From: Escherichia coli
GTDB lineage: Bacteria > Pseudomonadota > Gammaproteobacteria > Enterobacterales > Enterobacteriaceae
Length of the DNA: 64,000 bases
Reading direction: 5' to 3' (one strand)
NCBI RefSeq assembly: GCF_003334255.1
Contig: NZ_QOWU01000006.1
The position numbers and the translations under genes are program-made. The notes beneath the pieces are model-generated. The model was not told the origin of the DNA. It did no database searches and saw only the letters and a list, made by a program, of their open reading frames with translations. Positions 48,004 to 49,943 of this stretch are shown here, in pieces (the stretch's first letter is position 1; every line of letters begins with the position of its first letter).

Positions 48004-48591
48004 TCAGGCTTCGGCTTCTTTTCCCCAGCCAACCTTATAGTCCAGAATCGCCGCCGTATCGTTCAGGGCGGCGATCTCTTTTTTCATGTTACGCTGGCGA
48101 ATGTGAATTTCCATCCCTTTGGCAAACAGGGCTTTTGCGGCTGCATCGCTGAGGGCAATCAGCTCATCAGCAGAAACAGGAACATCGTTGTTCTGTGCAT
48201 CAGTCCAGAAAAAATCCAGCGGCAGGATCCCCGCTTTTGCGGCAGCAACGGAAGGCTCAAGGCGGGCCTGCGTTGACTTCCCGTAGTCCCATTTCCGGCC
48301 GTTATGTTCAAAGGTGTAACTCGCCGCTTCCATCGCATTACGCCAGGTGTTGATTTCGTCGTTTTTCAGGCGTCTGGCGTTTTCCCTGTCAGTGTCGTTT
48401 TCCTGGTATTCAGATACAGGGCCGTGATTTCCTGCTTTCAGTTCGCCCCAGAGTTTTTTGCCGTGTGGCGAGTTGTCATATTCGGTTGCCGTATAGGGCA
48501 GCCAGCTCTCCTCCCCTTCAAACTGGATCTCACAGTCGATAGTGCCGTCACGGTTATAAGCGGCATTTCTTGCTGATTTGATTGTGTGCAT
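48004..48591 (-). CDS. G: Tail fibre assembly protein (Tfa/gpG-like)
   Basis: 195-aa ORF downstream of tail fibre gene; Tfa-type chaperone. Confidence 0.8.
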   Translation of the reverse strand: MHTIKSARNAAYNRDGTIDCEIQFEGEESWLPYTATEYDNSPHGKKLWGELKAGNHGPVSEYQENDTDRENARRLKNDEINTWRNAMEAASYTFEHNGRKWDYGKSTQARLEPSVAAAKAGILPLDFFWTDAQNNDVPVSADELIALSDAAAKALFAKGMEIHIRQRNMKKEIAALNDTAAILDYKVGWGKEAEA

Positions 48592-48602
48592 GAGTCTCTC
48601 CG

Positions 48603-49943
48603 TCAGGCAATGCGCTCAAATATTCCGATTCCTGCGCCTGCATAAATGTCAGCGCAGGCCCGCCACGTGCCCGGTGGCCTGCGGTTTGTGTTCCAGTTTT
48701 GCATGGATTCACGGGGGCCGAAGTTGCCTTCGGAATGAGTCAGGCTTATCAGTCTGAGTTTACTGCCCGGGCGGGTGTTTCCGGCCGTTATATCAATTTT
48801 GGCTGGCCACTCCCCTTCGGCATCCGTTGCCGCCAGAATAAAGCTGCCCACATCCCAGAGTGTCCGCTGTGTTTTTGCCTGTGCAGCCTCCAGTGCTTGC
48901 CGTGCTTTCTGCCCGGCGTTTTCTGCTGCCGTCATGGCCGTCTTCACAGCTTTTGGTGTGGCAGCCAGCACTTCACTGTCACTGTCCGTTGCGCTGCTTA
49001 GCTGAACAATACCTCGCTCTGTCAGGGAGGCATCGCCGGTCTGCGTGATGGGGAGTATGGCAACCTCCTTCCATTCAGACCACGGCCCGTTGCCGGTGAA
49101 GTTACCTGTCACTGTCCGGATAAATTTCCGTGGTGGATTCCAGGCGGTGTATTCCTGCTGGCAGAATCCCCATGCGCCCATCCTGATGGATAATGATCCG
49201 GCTGATGTTACCGGGTAGTGATGTGCTGTAGTGGCGCCGTTGTTGTTGGGCTGATAGTAGTCACCATGATGTTCAGGTCTCCCCAGTGTATTCAGATCCA
49301 CGGCGAGGGGGGCTGTTGGTCTTGTTACTGTCAGCGCCTTAAGTGCTTTTATTGCTTTGGGTGTGGCTGCCCGGGTTTCATCATCACTGTCGGTTTCACT
49401 ACTGAGCTGAGTAAATCCTTTACTGGTGGTTGTGGCATCCGGGTGTTTACCGTTTTGTTCATGCTGCTTTATCATTTCTGCCACGCCAGCCTGTGTTGCC
49501 ATGGTGGTTGATGAGTCGGCTGTCAGATTTACAGAGGCTTCGTTGCTCAGCAGAATCACCATGCGGAATACCTGTTCTCTGCCTGAGCCCTCATCAAGCT
49601 GCGGTTTGTAACCTTCCGCAACATTACCCACGGCGATGAGTGTGCCTTTGCTGTCAAACAGACCGATTTCGCGGATCCAGAATCCTCCTTCATTCGCAGG
49701 AATGATCACTTCGGCGGTTAAAAAACTGGTGTTTTCCGCGTCACGGCTGACCCTGCTGACCTCGCCCCGCCAGACCTCTTTAACGAGAGCGGTTTGCGTG
49801 GCCAGTGGTTCTGTGGGTTTACCGTTACCGTCTCCGACGGCGATATGTGTCAGCGTGATCTTTTCTCCATCCGGTAACACCGCAGCTGCGAGGGCTGCTG
49901 TGCCGGCATTTGTGATAATGGTTTTGTATTTTGCGGCCATCAT
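48603..49943 (-). CDS. H: Tail fibre protein H
   Basis: N-terminus KYKTIITNAG...IAVGDGNG...WIREIGLFD...EGSGREQVFRMVI matches the conserved P2 gpH baseplate-attachment domain; C-terminal half divergent. Confidence 0.85.
   Translation of the reverse strand: MMAAKYKTIITNAGTAALAAAVLPDGEKITLTHIAVGDGNGKPTEPLATQTALVKEVWRGEVSRVSRDAENTSFLTAEVIIPANEGGFWIREIGLFDSKGTLIAVGNVAEGYKPQLDEGSGREQVFRMVILLSNEASVNLTADSSTTMATQAGVAEMIKQHEQNGKHPDATTTSKGFTQLSSETDSDDETRAATPKAIKALKALTVTRPTAPLAVDLNTLGRPEHHGDYYQPNNNGATTAHHYPVTSAGSLSIRMGAWGFCQQEYTAWNPPRKFIRTVTGNFTGNGPWSEWKEVAILPITQTGDASLTERGIVQLSSATDSDSEVLAATPKAVKTAMTAAENAGQKARQALEAAQAKTQRTLWDVGSFILAATDAEGEWPAKIDITAGNTRPGSKLRLISLTHSEGNFGPRESMQNWNTNRRPPGTWRACADIYAGAGIGIFERIA

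What the first reader, a model, noticed from the sequence alone, without database searches (positions are those of the whole stretch)
48004..49943. Tail fibre H is shorter than P2 H and has a divergent C-terminal half with a Tfa-type chaperone
The N-terminal baseplate-attachment domain is P2-like, but the C-terminal receptor-binding region and the downstream chaperone differ, consistent with host-range module exchange. No Z/fun-type locus follows G; U converges on it directly.
Basis: partly seen in the sequence, partly recalled or inferred. Interest (0 to 1): 0.3.

Follow-up and report, generated by a model that had tools for sequence, protein, structure and literature searches.

The report
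Short P2-type tail fibre, DUF4376 chaperone
An E. coli P2-like prophage has a short mosaic tail fibre followed by a fibre-folding helper that belongs to the DUF4376 family, not the classical Tfa family; this is an ordinary host-range module swap in a P88-like phage backbone.

Summary
On the minus strand, 48603-49943 encodes a 446-aa tail fibre (P2 H is 669 aa). Residues 1-210 are 55% identical to P2 H. The rest matches P2 only in a 40-aa fibre repeat. 48004-48591 encodes a 195-aa protein that converges on gene U across a 10-nt gap. No Z/fun homologue occurs anywhere in the window.

One label is wrong. The 195-aa protein is not Tfa-type. It has no similarity to P2 G, Mu U or lambda Tfa, no Caudo_TAP domain, and an hhalign probability of 4.7% against Tfa proteins. 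It is a DUF4376 protein, homologous to the experimentally shown fibre chaperone gp27 of Alteromonas phage V22 (hhalign 96.7%). It is 60% identical to ORF-191 of lambdoid P-Eib prophages.

The U convergence is not a local oddity. The FI-U block is inverted relative to P2, as in phages P88, 503458 and 500465-2. Those phages carry an invertase and an alternative fibre cassette between U and H; this prophage has neither.

Comparison with two sister prophages shows the swapped unit is the fibre tip (about aa 300/345-446) plus the chaperone N-domain (about aa 1-70). Both genes are under purifying selection.

Verdict: real and functional, a new member of a known kind, of low to moderate interest.

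The parts
48603..49943 (-). Tail fibre gene H, 446 aa. A mosaic of anchor, fibre repeat, bead domain, fibre repeat and tip.
   Evidence: ORF. Pfam finds Phage_tail_fib at 2-151 and Phage_fiber_2 at 171-206 and 306-346. PHROG tail-fibre families hit at E 1e-107. dN/dS is 0.11 against the L007 orthologue.
49491..49943 (-). H aa 1-151: the P2 H-type N-terminal baseplate-attachment domain. P2 similarity extends to aa 210.
   Evidence: PF12571 hit at E 6e-51. 55% identity to P2 H over aa 1-210. This is the only part of H that AlphaFold2 models with confidence.
49044..49310 (-). H aa 212-300: a globular 'bead' domain between two fibre repeats. P2 H lacks it; common 744-aa E. coli prophage fibres and Aeromonas T4-like phage fibres have it.
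   Evidence: No P2 match. The strongly similar stretch 188-300 lies inside a 53%-identical BLASTP segment to P0089 covering its residues 288-395. 46-48% identity to Aeromonas phages Aeh1 and avDM12.
48906..49034 (-). H aa 304-346: second fibre repeat, followed by a helix predicted at low confidence. This is the upstream edge of the exchangeable cassette.
   Evidence: PF03406 hit at E 3.9e-17. Matches Mu S 110-150 in PDB entry 5yvq_A. Identity to L009 H falls from 53-93% before ~aa 330 to 17-30% after aa 346.
48606..48905 (-). H aa 347-446: the distal tip and presumed receptor-binding domain. It is restricted to this lineage.
   Evidence: Only 3 hits among 5.8 billion proteins, all fragments of the same protein. 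No phage match for the final ~40 residues, aa 407-446. Weak colinear motifs (VGSF, PGTWRA, terminal F-E/Q-R-I) are shared with the P-EibA Stf tip, BLASTP E 0.11. dN/dS is 0.18.
48004..48591 (-). 195-aa DUF4376-family protein in the 'G' position; inferred intermolecular tail-fibre chaperone.
   Evidence: PF14301 at 72-185, E 1.5e-17, with no Caudo_TAP hit. phrog_1141 hit at E 2.5e-76. hhalign to V22 gp27 gives 96.7%. 60% identity to P-EibA ORF-191A. AlphaFold2 pLDDT 96. dN/dS is 0.13.
48397..48591 (-). Chaperone aa 1-65: a variable N-domain (three beta strands plus a helix), inferred to contact the fibre tip.
   Evidence: Model strands at 4-12, 18-24 and 30-35, helix at 42-53. Aligned in only 57% of family representatives, at 22% identity. 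Its identity co-varies with tip identity across 10 locus pairs.
48037..48378 (-). Chaperone aa 72-185: the conserved DUF4376 domain (helical body plus a beta hairpin at 92-103), inferred to be the trimerisation module.
   Evidence: Aligned in 97% of 108 representatives, with nearly invariant W83, R84, E88, W101, D102, W129, T130, H163, Q166 and R167. 59-86% identity is retained across loci whose tips are unrelated.
48357..49051 (-). Exchange cassette relative to sister prophage L009: the 3' third of H plus the 5' third of the chaperone gene.
   Evidence: blastn homology to L009 stops at 49051 and resumes at 48357, while the flanks stay at 68% identity.
47994..48003 (.). 10-nt spacer between the convergent stop codons of U and the chaperone gene.
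   Evidence: Sequence read directly. No terminator-like hairpin at the junction.
47502..47993 (+). Tail gene U, the last gene of the inverted FI-FII-E-T-U block (42418-47993).
   Evidence: phrog_76 hit at E 2.8e-66. 69% identity to U of P88-like phages. RefSeq annotation in L005.
49943..50575 (-). Baseplate gene I, immediately upstream of H and translationally coupled to it.
   Evidence: phrog_48 hit at E 2.3e-75. TAATG overlap with H.

Best explanation
This is the host-recognition module of an E. coli prophage of the P88-like branch of the P2 family (Peduoviridae), integrated beside serS.

Gene H encodes a short trimeric tail fibre built from modules: a P2 H-type N-terminal domain that plugs into the baseplate, two short fibre repeats flanking a bead domain, and a roughly 100-aa lineage-specific tip that presumably binds the receptor.

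The next gene encodes a DUF4376-family intermolecular chaperone. By analogy, its variable N-terminal beta domain docks on the nascent fibre tip. Its conserved helical DUF4376 domain trimerises and brings three fibre chains into register from the C-terminal end. The chaperone probably leaves the mature fibre afterwards.

The fibre tip and the chaperone N-domain are adjacent on the DNA and are exchanged together by recombination. One joint lies after the second fibre repeat; the other lies at the N-domain/DUF4376 boundary.

The module sits where related phages keep an invertase-switched pair of P2/Mu-type tips with Tfa chaperones. This lineage therefore has a single fixed specificity.

Shown here: gene structure, family assignments, non-membership in Tfa, cassette boundaries, covariation, purifying selection and the backbone layout.
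Inferred: chaperone activity, which domain does what, release after folding, and the receptor.
For: Family identity:
- Pfam finds DUF4376 only.
- hhalign of the 108-sequence family profile against V22 gp27 gives 96.7% probability, E 3.6e-10. V22 gp27 is also 195 aa, has DUF4376 at 92-184, is required at expression for a functional fibre, and is absent from the mature fibre (PMC7289586, PMC10579305).
- The gene downstream of the Campylobacter CJIE1 H-fibre carries DUF4376 and is needed for H-fibre function (PMC7882524).

Position: the gene lies directly 3' of the fibre gene with an RBS. Its homologue ORF-191A sits in the tfa slot after the lambda-Stf-like gene of P-EibA.

Structure: a pLDDT-96 model shows three N-terminal strands, a helical body and a hairpin. 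These are the same elements described for V22 gp27 and A5 gp9 (PMC10579305, read).

Domain roles rest on analogy. In Pam3 gp25 (solved complex) and, as that paper describes it, in TfaMu, the N-domain binds the fibre and the C-terminal helices trimerise (PMC9608196).

Modularity: the C-domain aligns in 97% of representatives at 41% identity; the N-part aligns in 57% at 22% identity, and its length ranges from 43 to 139 aa.

Covariation across 10 locus pairs (tip identity / chaperone N-domain identity): 68/73, 15/14, 25/34, 25/34, 13/17, 26/33, 26/33, 16/17, 12/17, 98/98. The chaperone C-domain stays at 59-86% throughout.

Cassette: homology to L009 is lost only across 49051-48357.

Functionality: dN/dS is 0.11 for H and 0.13 for the chaperone, similar to I (0.13) and J (0.09). 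Both ORFs are intact in sister loci and in the other genomes inspected.

Backbone: P88, 503458 and 500465-2 share the layout D(-) | FI..U(+) | ... | H(-).
Against: - No experiment exists on this protein or on any E. coli DUF4376 protein that I could find; only 9 papers in the library mention DUF4376.
- PHROGs labels the family 'tail fiber protein', so a structural role is not excluded.
- The H C-terminal half could not be modelled (pLDDT below 50 from aa 134), so the tip fold and the chaperone interface remain untested.
- Identity to V22 gp27 is only 26% and is limited to the C-domain.
- dS is near saturation (0.8-1.2), so the dN/dS values are rough.
Confidence: 0.75

Rival explanations
1. The 195-aa protein is a classical Tfa-type (Caudo_TAP; lambda Tfa, Mu U, P2 G) assembly protein that has simply diverged.
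For: It has the same position, a similar size (195 vs 175-194 aa) and the same inferred two-module logic (PMC9608196). In sister prophage L009, the chaperone N-domain really is P2 G-like (38% identity, E 2e-22), so the two families do exchange parts.
Confidence: 0.03
2. The 195-aa protein is a structural part of the fibre. It could be a distal adhesin or a persistent cap, like gp38 of T2-type phages or Mu Tfa (which stays on the tip), and so contribute to or mask receptor binding rather than acting only as a folding helper.
For: PHROGs and several phage records call homologues 'tail fiber protein'. Mu Tfa remains bound to the fibre (cited in PMC7289586). The Alteromonas authors propose a transient 'cap' role for DUF4376 chaperones (PMC10579305). 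The N-domain evolves fastest (dN/dS 0.20), as would an exposed surface.
Against: V22 gp27 separates from the fibre on size-exclusion chromatography, and the fibre binds cells without it (PMC7289586). The most variable part tracks the fibre tip rather than varying independently. The conserved part is a helical bundle without obvious hypervariable loops.
Confidence: 0.15
3. The short H is a truncated, decaying remnant in a cryptic prophage, and the downstream ORF is unrelated cargo.
For: H is a third shorter than P2 H. PGAP annotates it as three pseudogene fragments in NZ_CP075697.1, and that copy of the prophage also has a frameshifted terminase.
Against: The 446-aa ORF is intact in that same genome and is annotated whole elsewhere. 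The 82%-diverged sister L007 keeps exactly 446 and 195 aa. dN/dS is 0.11 and 0.13, matching the baseplate genes. All morphogenesis genes are present in the window. Short fibres with DUF4376 chaperones work in V22, where the fibre is 369 aa (PMC7289586).
Confidence: 0.05

Closest known systems
Alteromonas phage V22 gp26/gp27 (and A5 gp8/gp9): tail fibre plus DUF4376 intermolecular chaperone
   Same: The chaperone has the same length (195 aa) and a C-terminal DUF4376 domain, with hhalign probability 96.7%. The predicted elements match: three N-terminal strands, a helical body and a hairpin (PMC10579305). It is encoded directly after a short fibre gene.
   Different: Identity is only 26% and confined to the C-domain. 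The fibres are unrelated. The host is E. coli and the backbone is a temperate P2-like phage. No experiment has been done here.
Campylobacter CJIE1-like prophage H-fibre and its downstream DUF4376 gene
   Same: The domain combination is the same: a P2 H-type N-terminal anchor (DUF3751, described there as analogous to the P2 H N-terminal domain) on the fibre, plus a DUF4376 protein required for fibre function (PMC7882524).
   Different: The backbone is a CJIE1-like Campylobacter prophage rather than a P2-like coliphage, and the tip differs. No sequence comparison was made here. That paper equates DUF4376 with the C-terminus of Mu Tfa; my profile comparison with Mu U does not support this.
ORF-191 of lambdoid P-Eib prophages, with homologues in GER2, PhiR12, phiP27 and Rac-SA53
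   Same: These are the closest sequenced phage homologues: 60% identity over 186 aa including the N-domain. ORF-191 sits in the tfa slot after a Stf-like fibre. The fibre tips share weak colinear motifs.
   Different: They belong to lambdoid siphovirus or Stx-type backbones with collagen-like Stf shafts. Tip identity is only about 25%. Their function has not been studied.
Phage P2 H/G (and Mu S/U, lambda Stf/Tfa)
   Same: The H N-terminal 210 aa are 55% identical to P2 H, and the fibre repeat motif is shared. The gene order I-H-chaperone is the same.
   Different: The tip is unrelated, and the chaperone belongs to another family rather than Caudo_TAP. There is no Z/fun. The FI-U block is inverted.
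Phage P88 and relatives (Xuanwuvirus, Gemsvirus; Peduoviridae)
   Same: The backbone order and strands are the same: D(-) | FI FII E T U(+) | H I J W V(-). U is 68-73% identical. A hok locus lies next to D/ogr.
   Different: Those phages have a DNA invertase plus an alternative tip and Tfa cassette between U and H, with P2/Mu-type tips. This prophage has no invertase, no gix-like core and a single DUF4376 cassette. Nucleotide identity is only about 65-78%, in patches.

Membership tests
Tfa / Caudo_TAP tail-fibre assembly proteins (PF02413: lambda Tfa, Mu U, P2 G) | Match to the Caudo_TAP profile | tested here: not met
   Pfam finds only DUF4376 for the 195-aa protein. As a control, all 6 reference Tfa proteins hit Caudo_TAP, best E 3.6e-43.
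Tfa / Caudo_TAP tail-fibre assembly proteins (PF02413: lambda Tfa, Mu U, P2 G) | Detectable homology to reference members by pairwise or profile-profile comparison | tested here: not met
   BLASTP against P2 G gives a best E of 0.78. hhalign of the 108-sequence family against the 6 Tfa proteins gives 4.7% probability. tblastn of Mu U, P2 G and lambda Tfa against the window finds nothing.
Tfa / Caudo_TAP tail-fibre assembly proteins (PF02413: lambda Tfa, Mu U, P2 G) | Fold like TfaMu (PDB 5YVQ chain B) | tested here: not met
DUF4376-type tail-fibre chaperones (PF14301; V22 gp27 type) | C-terminal DUF4376 domain | tested here: met
   PF14301 at residues 72-185, E 1.5e-17. All 108 representatives of the family also hit it.
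DUF4376-type tail-fibre chaperones (PF14301; V22 gp27 type) | Homology to an experimentally characterised member (V22 gp27) | tested here: met
   hhalign gives 96.7% probability, E 3.6e-10, over 112 columns. BLASTP gives E 1e-5 at 26% identity.
DUF4376-type tail-fibre chaperones (PF14301; V22 gp27 type) | Encoded immediately downstream of the tail-fibre gene on the same strand | tested here: met
   An 11-nt gap with an RBS follows the H stop. The arrangement is the same in L007, L009, P-EibA, GER2 and V22.
DUF4376-type tail-fibre chaperones (PF14301; V22 gp27 type) | Predicted architecture: N-terminal beta strands, helical body and beta hairpin | tested here: met
   The model has strands at 4-35, helices at 66-89, 105-119 and 141-175, and a hairpin at 92-103. 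This was compared with the published description. BFVD hits are DUF4376 proteins.
DUF4376-type tail-fibre chaperones (PF14301; V22 gp27 type) | Required for production of a functional fibre and absent from the mature fibre | not testable with these tools
   This needs co-expression and binding assays or virion proteomics.
P2 gpH-type tail fibres | N-terminal Phage_tail_fib (PF12571) anchor, colinear with the P2 H N-terminus | tested here: met
   PF12571 at 2-151, E 6e-51. 55% identity to P2 H 1-210.
P2 gpH-type tail fibres | Full-length colinearity with P2 H, including the C-terminal receptor-binding region | tested here: not met
   Beyond aa 211 only the 40-aa repeat matches.
P88-like Peduoviridae (Xuanwuvirus/Gemsvirus layout) | FI-FII-E-T-U block inverted relative to V-W-J-I-H, with D on the opposite strand | tested here: met
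   Shown for the window. The same layout occurs in P88, 503458 and 500465-2.
P88-like Peduoviridae (Xuanwuvirus/Gemsvirus layout) | Invertase plus an alternative fibre-tip/Tfa cassette between U and H (seen in all three sequenced relatives inspected) | tested here: not met
   Only 10 nt separate U from the chaperone gene. There is no invertase homologue in the window and no gix-like core in the prophage.
P88-like Peduoviridae (Xuanwuvirus/Gemsvirus layout) | Genus-level nucleotide identity to a classified member | tested here: not met
   Megablast against 50,697 phage records hits only 361 nt of the chaperone gene. blastn against P88 gives patchy 65-78% identity.

The most novel reading that the evidence does not exclude
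DUF4376 may be a free-standing trimerisation module, interchangeable with the C-terminal helical part of classical Tfa proteins.

In this one prophage lineage the same DUF4376 domain is fused to one of two N-domains. One is an orphan beta N-domain serving the 'PGTWRA' tip (this window). The other is a genuine P2 G-like N-domain serving a P2 H-like tip (sister prophage L009).

If that holds, the many DUF4376 proteins found in E. coli prophages in these searches would form a second, so far untested class of fibre chaperones in enterobacteria. Chaperone specificity could then be re-programmed by swapping about 70 codons together with the fibre tip. The protein might additionally persist as a transient cap on the tip.
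Probability: 0.3. Interest if true: 0.45.

Novelty: new member of a known kind. Interest (0 to 1): 0.25.

Why it matters
Practically, it corrects an easy mis-annotation. The gene after a P2-type fibre is not always a Tfa. Anyone re-targeting phages or tailocins with this fibre would need to co-transfer the DUF4376 gene, or at least its first ~70 codons together with the tip.

It also gives a clean natural example of where recombination joints lie in a fibre/chaperone cassette.

None of the 29 phage records that match this chaperone by tblastn (out of 50,697 searched) is of P2-like size. The combination is therefore unrepresented among sequenced P2-like phages, although it occurs in 12 of 5426 complete E. 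coli genomes.

It does not open a new biological question. The receptor remains unknown, and the kind of system is already described.

Tried and rejected
- **Genome-contig scan:** scanning genome contigs with H returned only Paenibacillus and Jeotgalibacillus loci that share the 40-aa fibre repeat.
- **AlphaFold2 on full-length H:** with a 15-sequence alignment, mean pLDDT was 43, and everything after aa 133 was below 50. No inference on the tip fold is possible.
- **NCBIfam:** no family matched H, the chaperone, or even the reference Tfa proteins.
- **A rejected idea:** I first thought DUF4376 chaperones had the opposite polarity to Tfa proteins, because Mu U and U' are 70-73% identical over aa 1-115 but only 30% over aa 116-175. 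I dropped it. The Pam3 paper describes TfaMu as binding the fibre through its N-domain (PMC9608196), and the L009 hybrid pairs a P2 G-like N-domain with a P2 H-like tip.
- **Invertase remnants:** none found.
- **Plus-strand ORFs inside H and G, and the 195-aa antisense ORF inside T:** no PHROG hits; treated as spurious.
- **Rfam scan of 39.5-50.5 kb:** nothing.
- **Within-lineage alternative cassettes in complete E. coli genomes:** none. The same 12 genomes carry both the baseplate genes and this cassette. Variants came only from draft and Logan contigs.
- **A wrong accession:** my remembered accession for V22 (MN592896) was another phage. The correct one, MN877442, came from the paper.
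Full report
**What is at the coordinates**

The span 48004-49943 holds two minus-strand ORFs.
- H is 48603-49943 and encodes 446 aa. Its ATG overlaps the TAA of baseplate gene I (TAATG), with AGGAG just upstream.
- The second ORF is 48004-48591 and encodes 195 aa. It starts 11 nt after the H stop, behind GGAGAG.
- Four plus-strand ORFs of 90-108 aa lie inside these genes. None has a PHROG match, so I treat them as spurious.

The window is E. coli chromosome. trxB, lrp, ftsK, lolA, rarA and serS are followed by a P2-like prophage. The segment U-chaperone-H-I recurs as a single colinear piece at 98-99.7% identity in 12 of 5426 complete E. coli genomes. The junctions are therefore real.

**The fibre**

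Residues 2-211 of H align with P2 H 1-210 at 55% identity (E 6e-66). After that, only a 40-aa repeat at 304-346 matches.

The domain map is as follows.

| Residues | Module | Evidence |
|---|---|---|
| 2-151 | Phage_tail_fib anchor | Pfam |
| 171-206 | Phage_fiber_2 repeat | Pfam |
| 212-300 | 'Bead' domain, absent from P2 H | Lies within a 53%-identical segment to common 744-aa E. coli prophage fibres; 46-48% identical to Aeromonas T4-like phage fibres |
| 306-346 | Phage_fiber_2 repeat | Pfam |
| 347-446 | Tip | See below |

The tip (searched as the last 107 aa) has only three hits among 5.8 billion proteins, all fragments of the same protein. It shares weak colinear motifs (VGSF, PGTWRA and a terminal F-E/Q-R-I) with the Stf-like fibre of prophage P-EibA, at BLASTP E 0.11. 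A monomer AlphaFold2 model is confident only for aa 1-133, so the tip fold is unknown.

**The downstream protein is not a Tfa**

Evidence against membership of the Tfa family:
- BLASTP against P2 G finds nothing.
- Pfam finds only DUF4376 at 72-185, E 1.5e-17.
- As a control, P2 G, Mu U, Mu U', lambda Tfa and both P88 Tfa proteins all hit Caudo_TAP.
- A profile of 108 family representatives against those six Tfa proteins gives an hhalign probability of 4.7%.
- tblastn of Mu U, P2 G, lambda Tfa and lambda Stf against the whole window is empty.
- No DUF4376 protein has a solved structure detectable by sequence.

Evidence for membership of the DUF4376 chaperone family:
- The same profile matches gp27 of Alteromonas phage V22 at 96.7% probability, E 3.6e-10.
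- gp27 is also 195 aa, with DUF4376 at residues 92-184. It is needed during expression for the fibre gp26 to bind cells. It separates from the mature fibre (PMC7289586; PMC10579305).
- A DUF4376 gene is likewise required for the Campylobacter CJIE1 H-fibre, which has the same P2 H-type N-terminal anchor (PMC7882524).
- In BFVD the model matches DUF4376 proteins from myo-, sipho-, podo- and crAss-like phages.

**How it probably works**

The model shows three N-terminal strands (4-12, 18-24, 30-35) and a helix. These are followed by a helical body with a hairpin (92-103) and a long helix (141-175). The Alteromonas authors describe these same elements. In their multimer models the N-terminal strands extend a sheet of the fibre head, while the helices form the three-fold core. 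In the solved Pam3 gp24-gp25 complex, and as that paper describes it for TfaMu, the N-domain binds the fibre and the C-terminal helices trimerise (PMC9608196).

My data fit that division of labour.
- Across 108 representatives, the C-domain aligns in 97% of sequences at 41% identity.
- The N-part aligns in 57% at 22% identity, and its length varies from 43 to 139 aa.
- N-domains come from different families: 1-3 of the 108 representatives have a Caudo_TAP hit, one has XkdW and one has phage_tail_N.

Which domain does what, and release after folding, remain inferences.

**Module exchange, shown directly**

Two sister prophages with the same backbone were recovered.

L007 is 82% identical in DNA over 16.8 kb. 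It has orthologous H (80% identity, 446 aa) and chaperone (81%, 195 aa).

L009 is about 68-75% identical in DNA, but homology is lost exactly from 49051 to 48357. That gap corresponds to H codons ~298-446 plus chaperone codons 1-78. At protein level:
- H identity falls from 53-93% to 17-30% after aa ~345.
- Chaperone identity is 20-37% before aa ~60 and 50-77% after it.

Over ten locus pairs (window, L007, L009, P-EibA, GER2), tip identity and chaperone N-domain identity move together, from 12/17 up to 98/98. The DUF4376 domain stays at 59-86% throughout.

The L009 cassette is itself instructive.
- Its tip resembles the P2 H tip (29% identity, E 7e-4).
- Its 226-aa chaperone is a hybrid. Residues 1-107 are 38% identical to P2 G (E 2e-22), and they are fused to DUF4376.

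The two chaperone families therefore exchange N-domains, and the N-domain follows the tip.

**Both genes are functional**

Against L007, dN/dS is 0.11 for H (0.18 for the tip) and 0.13 for the chaperone (0.20 for the N-domain, 0.095 for DUF4376). Baseplate genes I and J give 0.13 and 0.09. dS is near saturation, so the values are rough. The direction is nonetheless clear. The short fibre is not a decaying remnant.

**Why U converges on the chaperone gene**

FI, FII, E, T and U (42418-47993) are on the plus strand. D, ogr and V-W-J-I-H-chaperone are on the minus strand. This is the order found in phage P88, 503458 (both Xuanwuvirus) and 500465-2 (Gemsvirus), whose U proteins are the nearest phage relatives at 68-73% identity.

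All three of those phages carry a DNA invertase, an alternative fibre tip and a second Tfa between U and H. P88's Tfa is 95% identical to Mu U, and its H ends like P2 H.

In the window:
- U and the chaperone gene are separated by 10 nt.
- No terminator-like hairpin lies at the junction.
- No invertase homologue is present.
- No gix-like core is present in the prophage.

Z/fun is also absent. The informative comparison, however, is the missing switchable cassette: this lineage has one fixed specificity.

**Comparison with known systems and novelty**

The nearest sequenced phage homologues of the chaperone are lambdoid. ORF-191 of the P-Eib prophages and GER2 are 60% identical and sit in the tfa slot after an Stf-like gene. 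Others are PhiR12, phiP27 and Rac-SA53. None of the 29 matching phage records has a P2-like genome size. Megablast of the region against 50,697 phage records hits only 361 nt.

The kind of system is known: a fibre with a P2 H-type anchor plus a DUF4376 chaperone, as in CJIE1 and V22. This is a new member of it, in a P88-like coliphage backbone not represented among deposited phages. Interest is low to moderate. The cassette boundaries and the L009 hybrid are the most useful by-products.

Noticed in passing
window 41139-47993: The FI-FII-E-T-U block (plus strand, 42418-47993) is inverted relative to P2. D (41139-42263) and ogr (40792-41094) stay on the minus strand with V-W-J-I-H. Phages P88, 503458 and 500465-2 have the same layout.
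   Followed up: yes
L009:9459-10139 (sister prophage, Logan SRR33953895 contig): A hybrid fibre chaperone of 226 aa. Residues 1-107 are 38% identical to the N-domain of P2 G (E 2e-22) and are fused to a C-terminal DUF4376 domain. It follows a 481-aa H with a collagen-like stretch and a P2 H-like tip. One to three of 108 DUF4376 representatives show a Caudo_TAP hit.
   Followed up: partly
window 53813-55879 (-): A 688-aa protein with DUF1737, SASA (sialate O-acetylesterase) and DUF6645 domains sits between the lysis genes and R/S. The domain combination recalls the NanS-p esterases of Stx prophages (from memory, not tested) and looks like a moron in a P2-like prophage. It is conserved in sister loci L007 and L009.
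   Followed up: partly
window 40006-40827: A tandem duplication of about 472 bp (91-97% identical copies) lies between serS and ogr. Each copy carries a 46-aa Hok/Gef ORF (40045-40185 and 40517-40657, differing by one residue). P88 has one such locus at the same place. Rfam found no family in this stretch at gathering score.
   Followed up: partly
L005:18204-19544 (NZ_CP075697.1), equivalent to window 48603-49943: RefSeq/PGAP annotates the intact 446-aa H ORF as three 'incomplete' pseudogene fragments in strain STEC2018-607. In strain LZSFT34 it is annotated as one whole protein (WP_050439235.1). This is an annotation inconsistency, not real decay.
   Followed up: yes
window 47991-48006: The convergent genes U and the chaperone gene have stop codons only 10 nt apart, with no terminator-like hairpin between them. 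How the two converging late transcripts end is unclear.
   Followed up: partly
L006 (phage P88) 9866-10955; L001; L012: P88 Tfa is 95% and P2 G is 93% identical to Mu U, and P88 H ends like P2 H. Yet the P88 backbone is only about 65-70% identical to this prophage. The P2/Mu-type tip and Tfa cassette moves almost unchanged between distant backbones.
   Followed up: partly
window 46805-47392 (-): A 195-aa antisense ORF lies inside the tape-measure gene and happens to have the same length as the chaperone. It has no PHROG match and lies in a high-GC region, so it is probably spurious.
   Followed up: yes
window 42216-42243 and 46810-46837: A 28-nt inverted repeat (86% complementary) has one arm near the start of D and the other inside T. 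It does not coincide with the ends of the inverted FI-U block, so it is likely chance.
   Followed up: no
L005:30573-32305 (NZ_CP075697.1) vs window 60867-62705: The large terminase gene is annotated as frameshifted in strain STEC2018-607 but is an intact 612-aa ORF in the window. Some copies of this prophage may therefore be defective.
   Followed up: no
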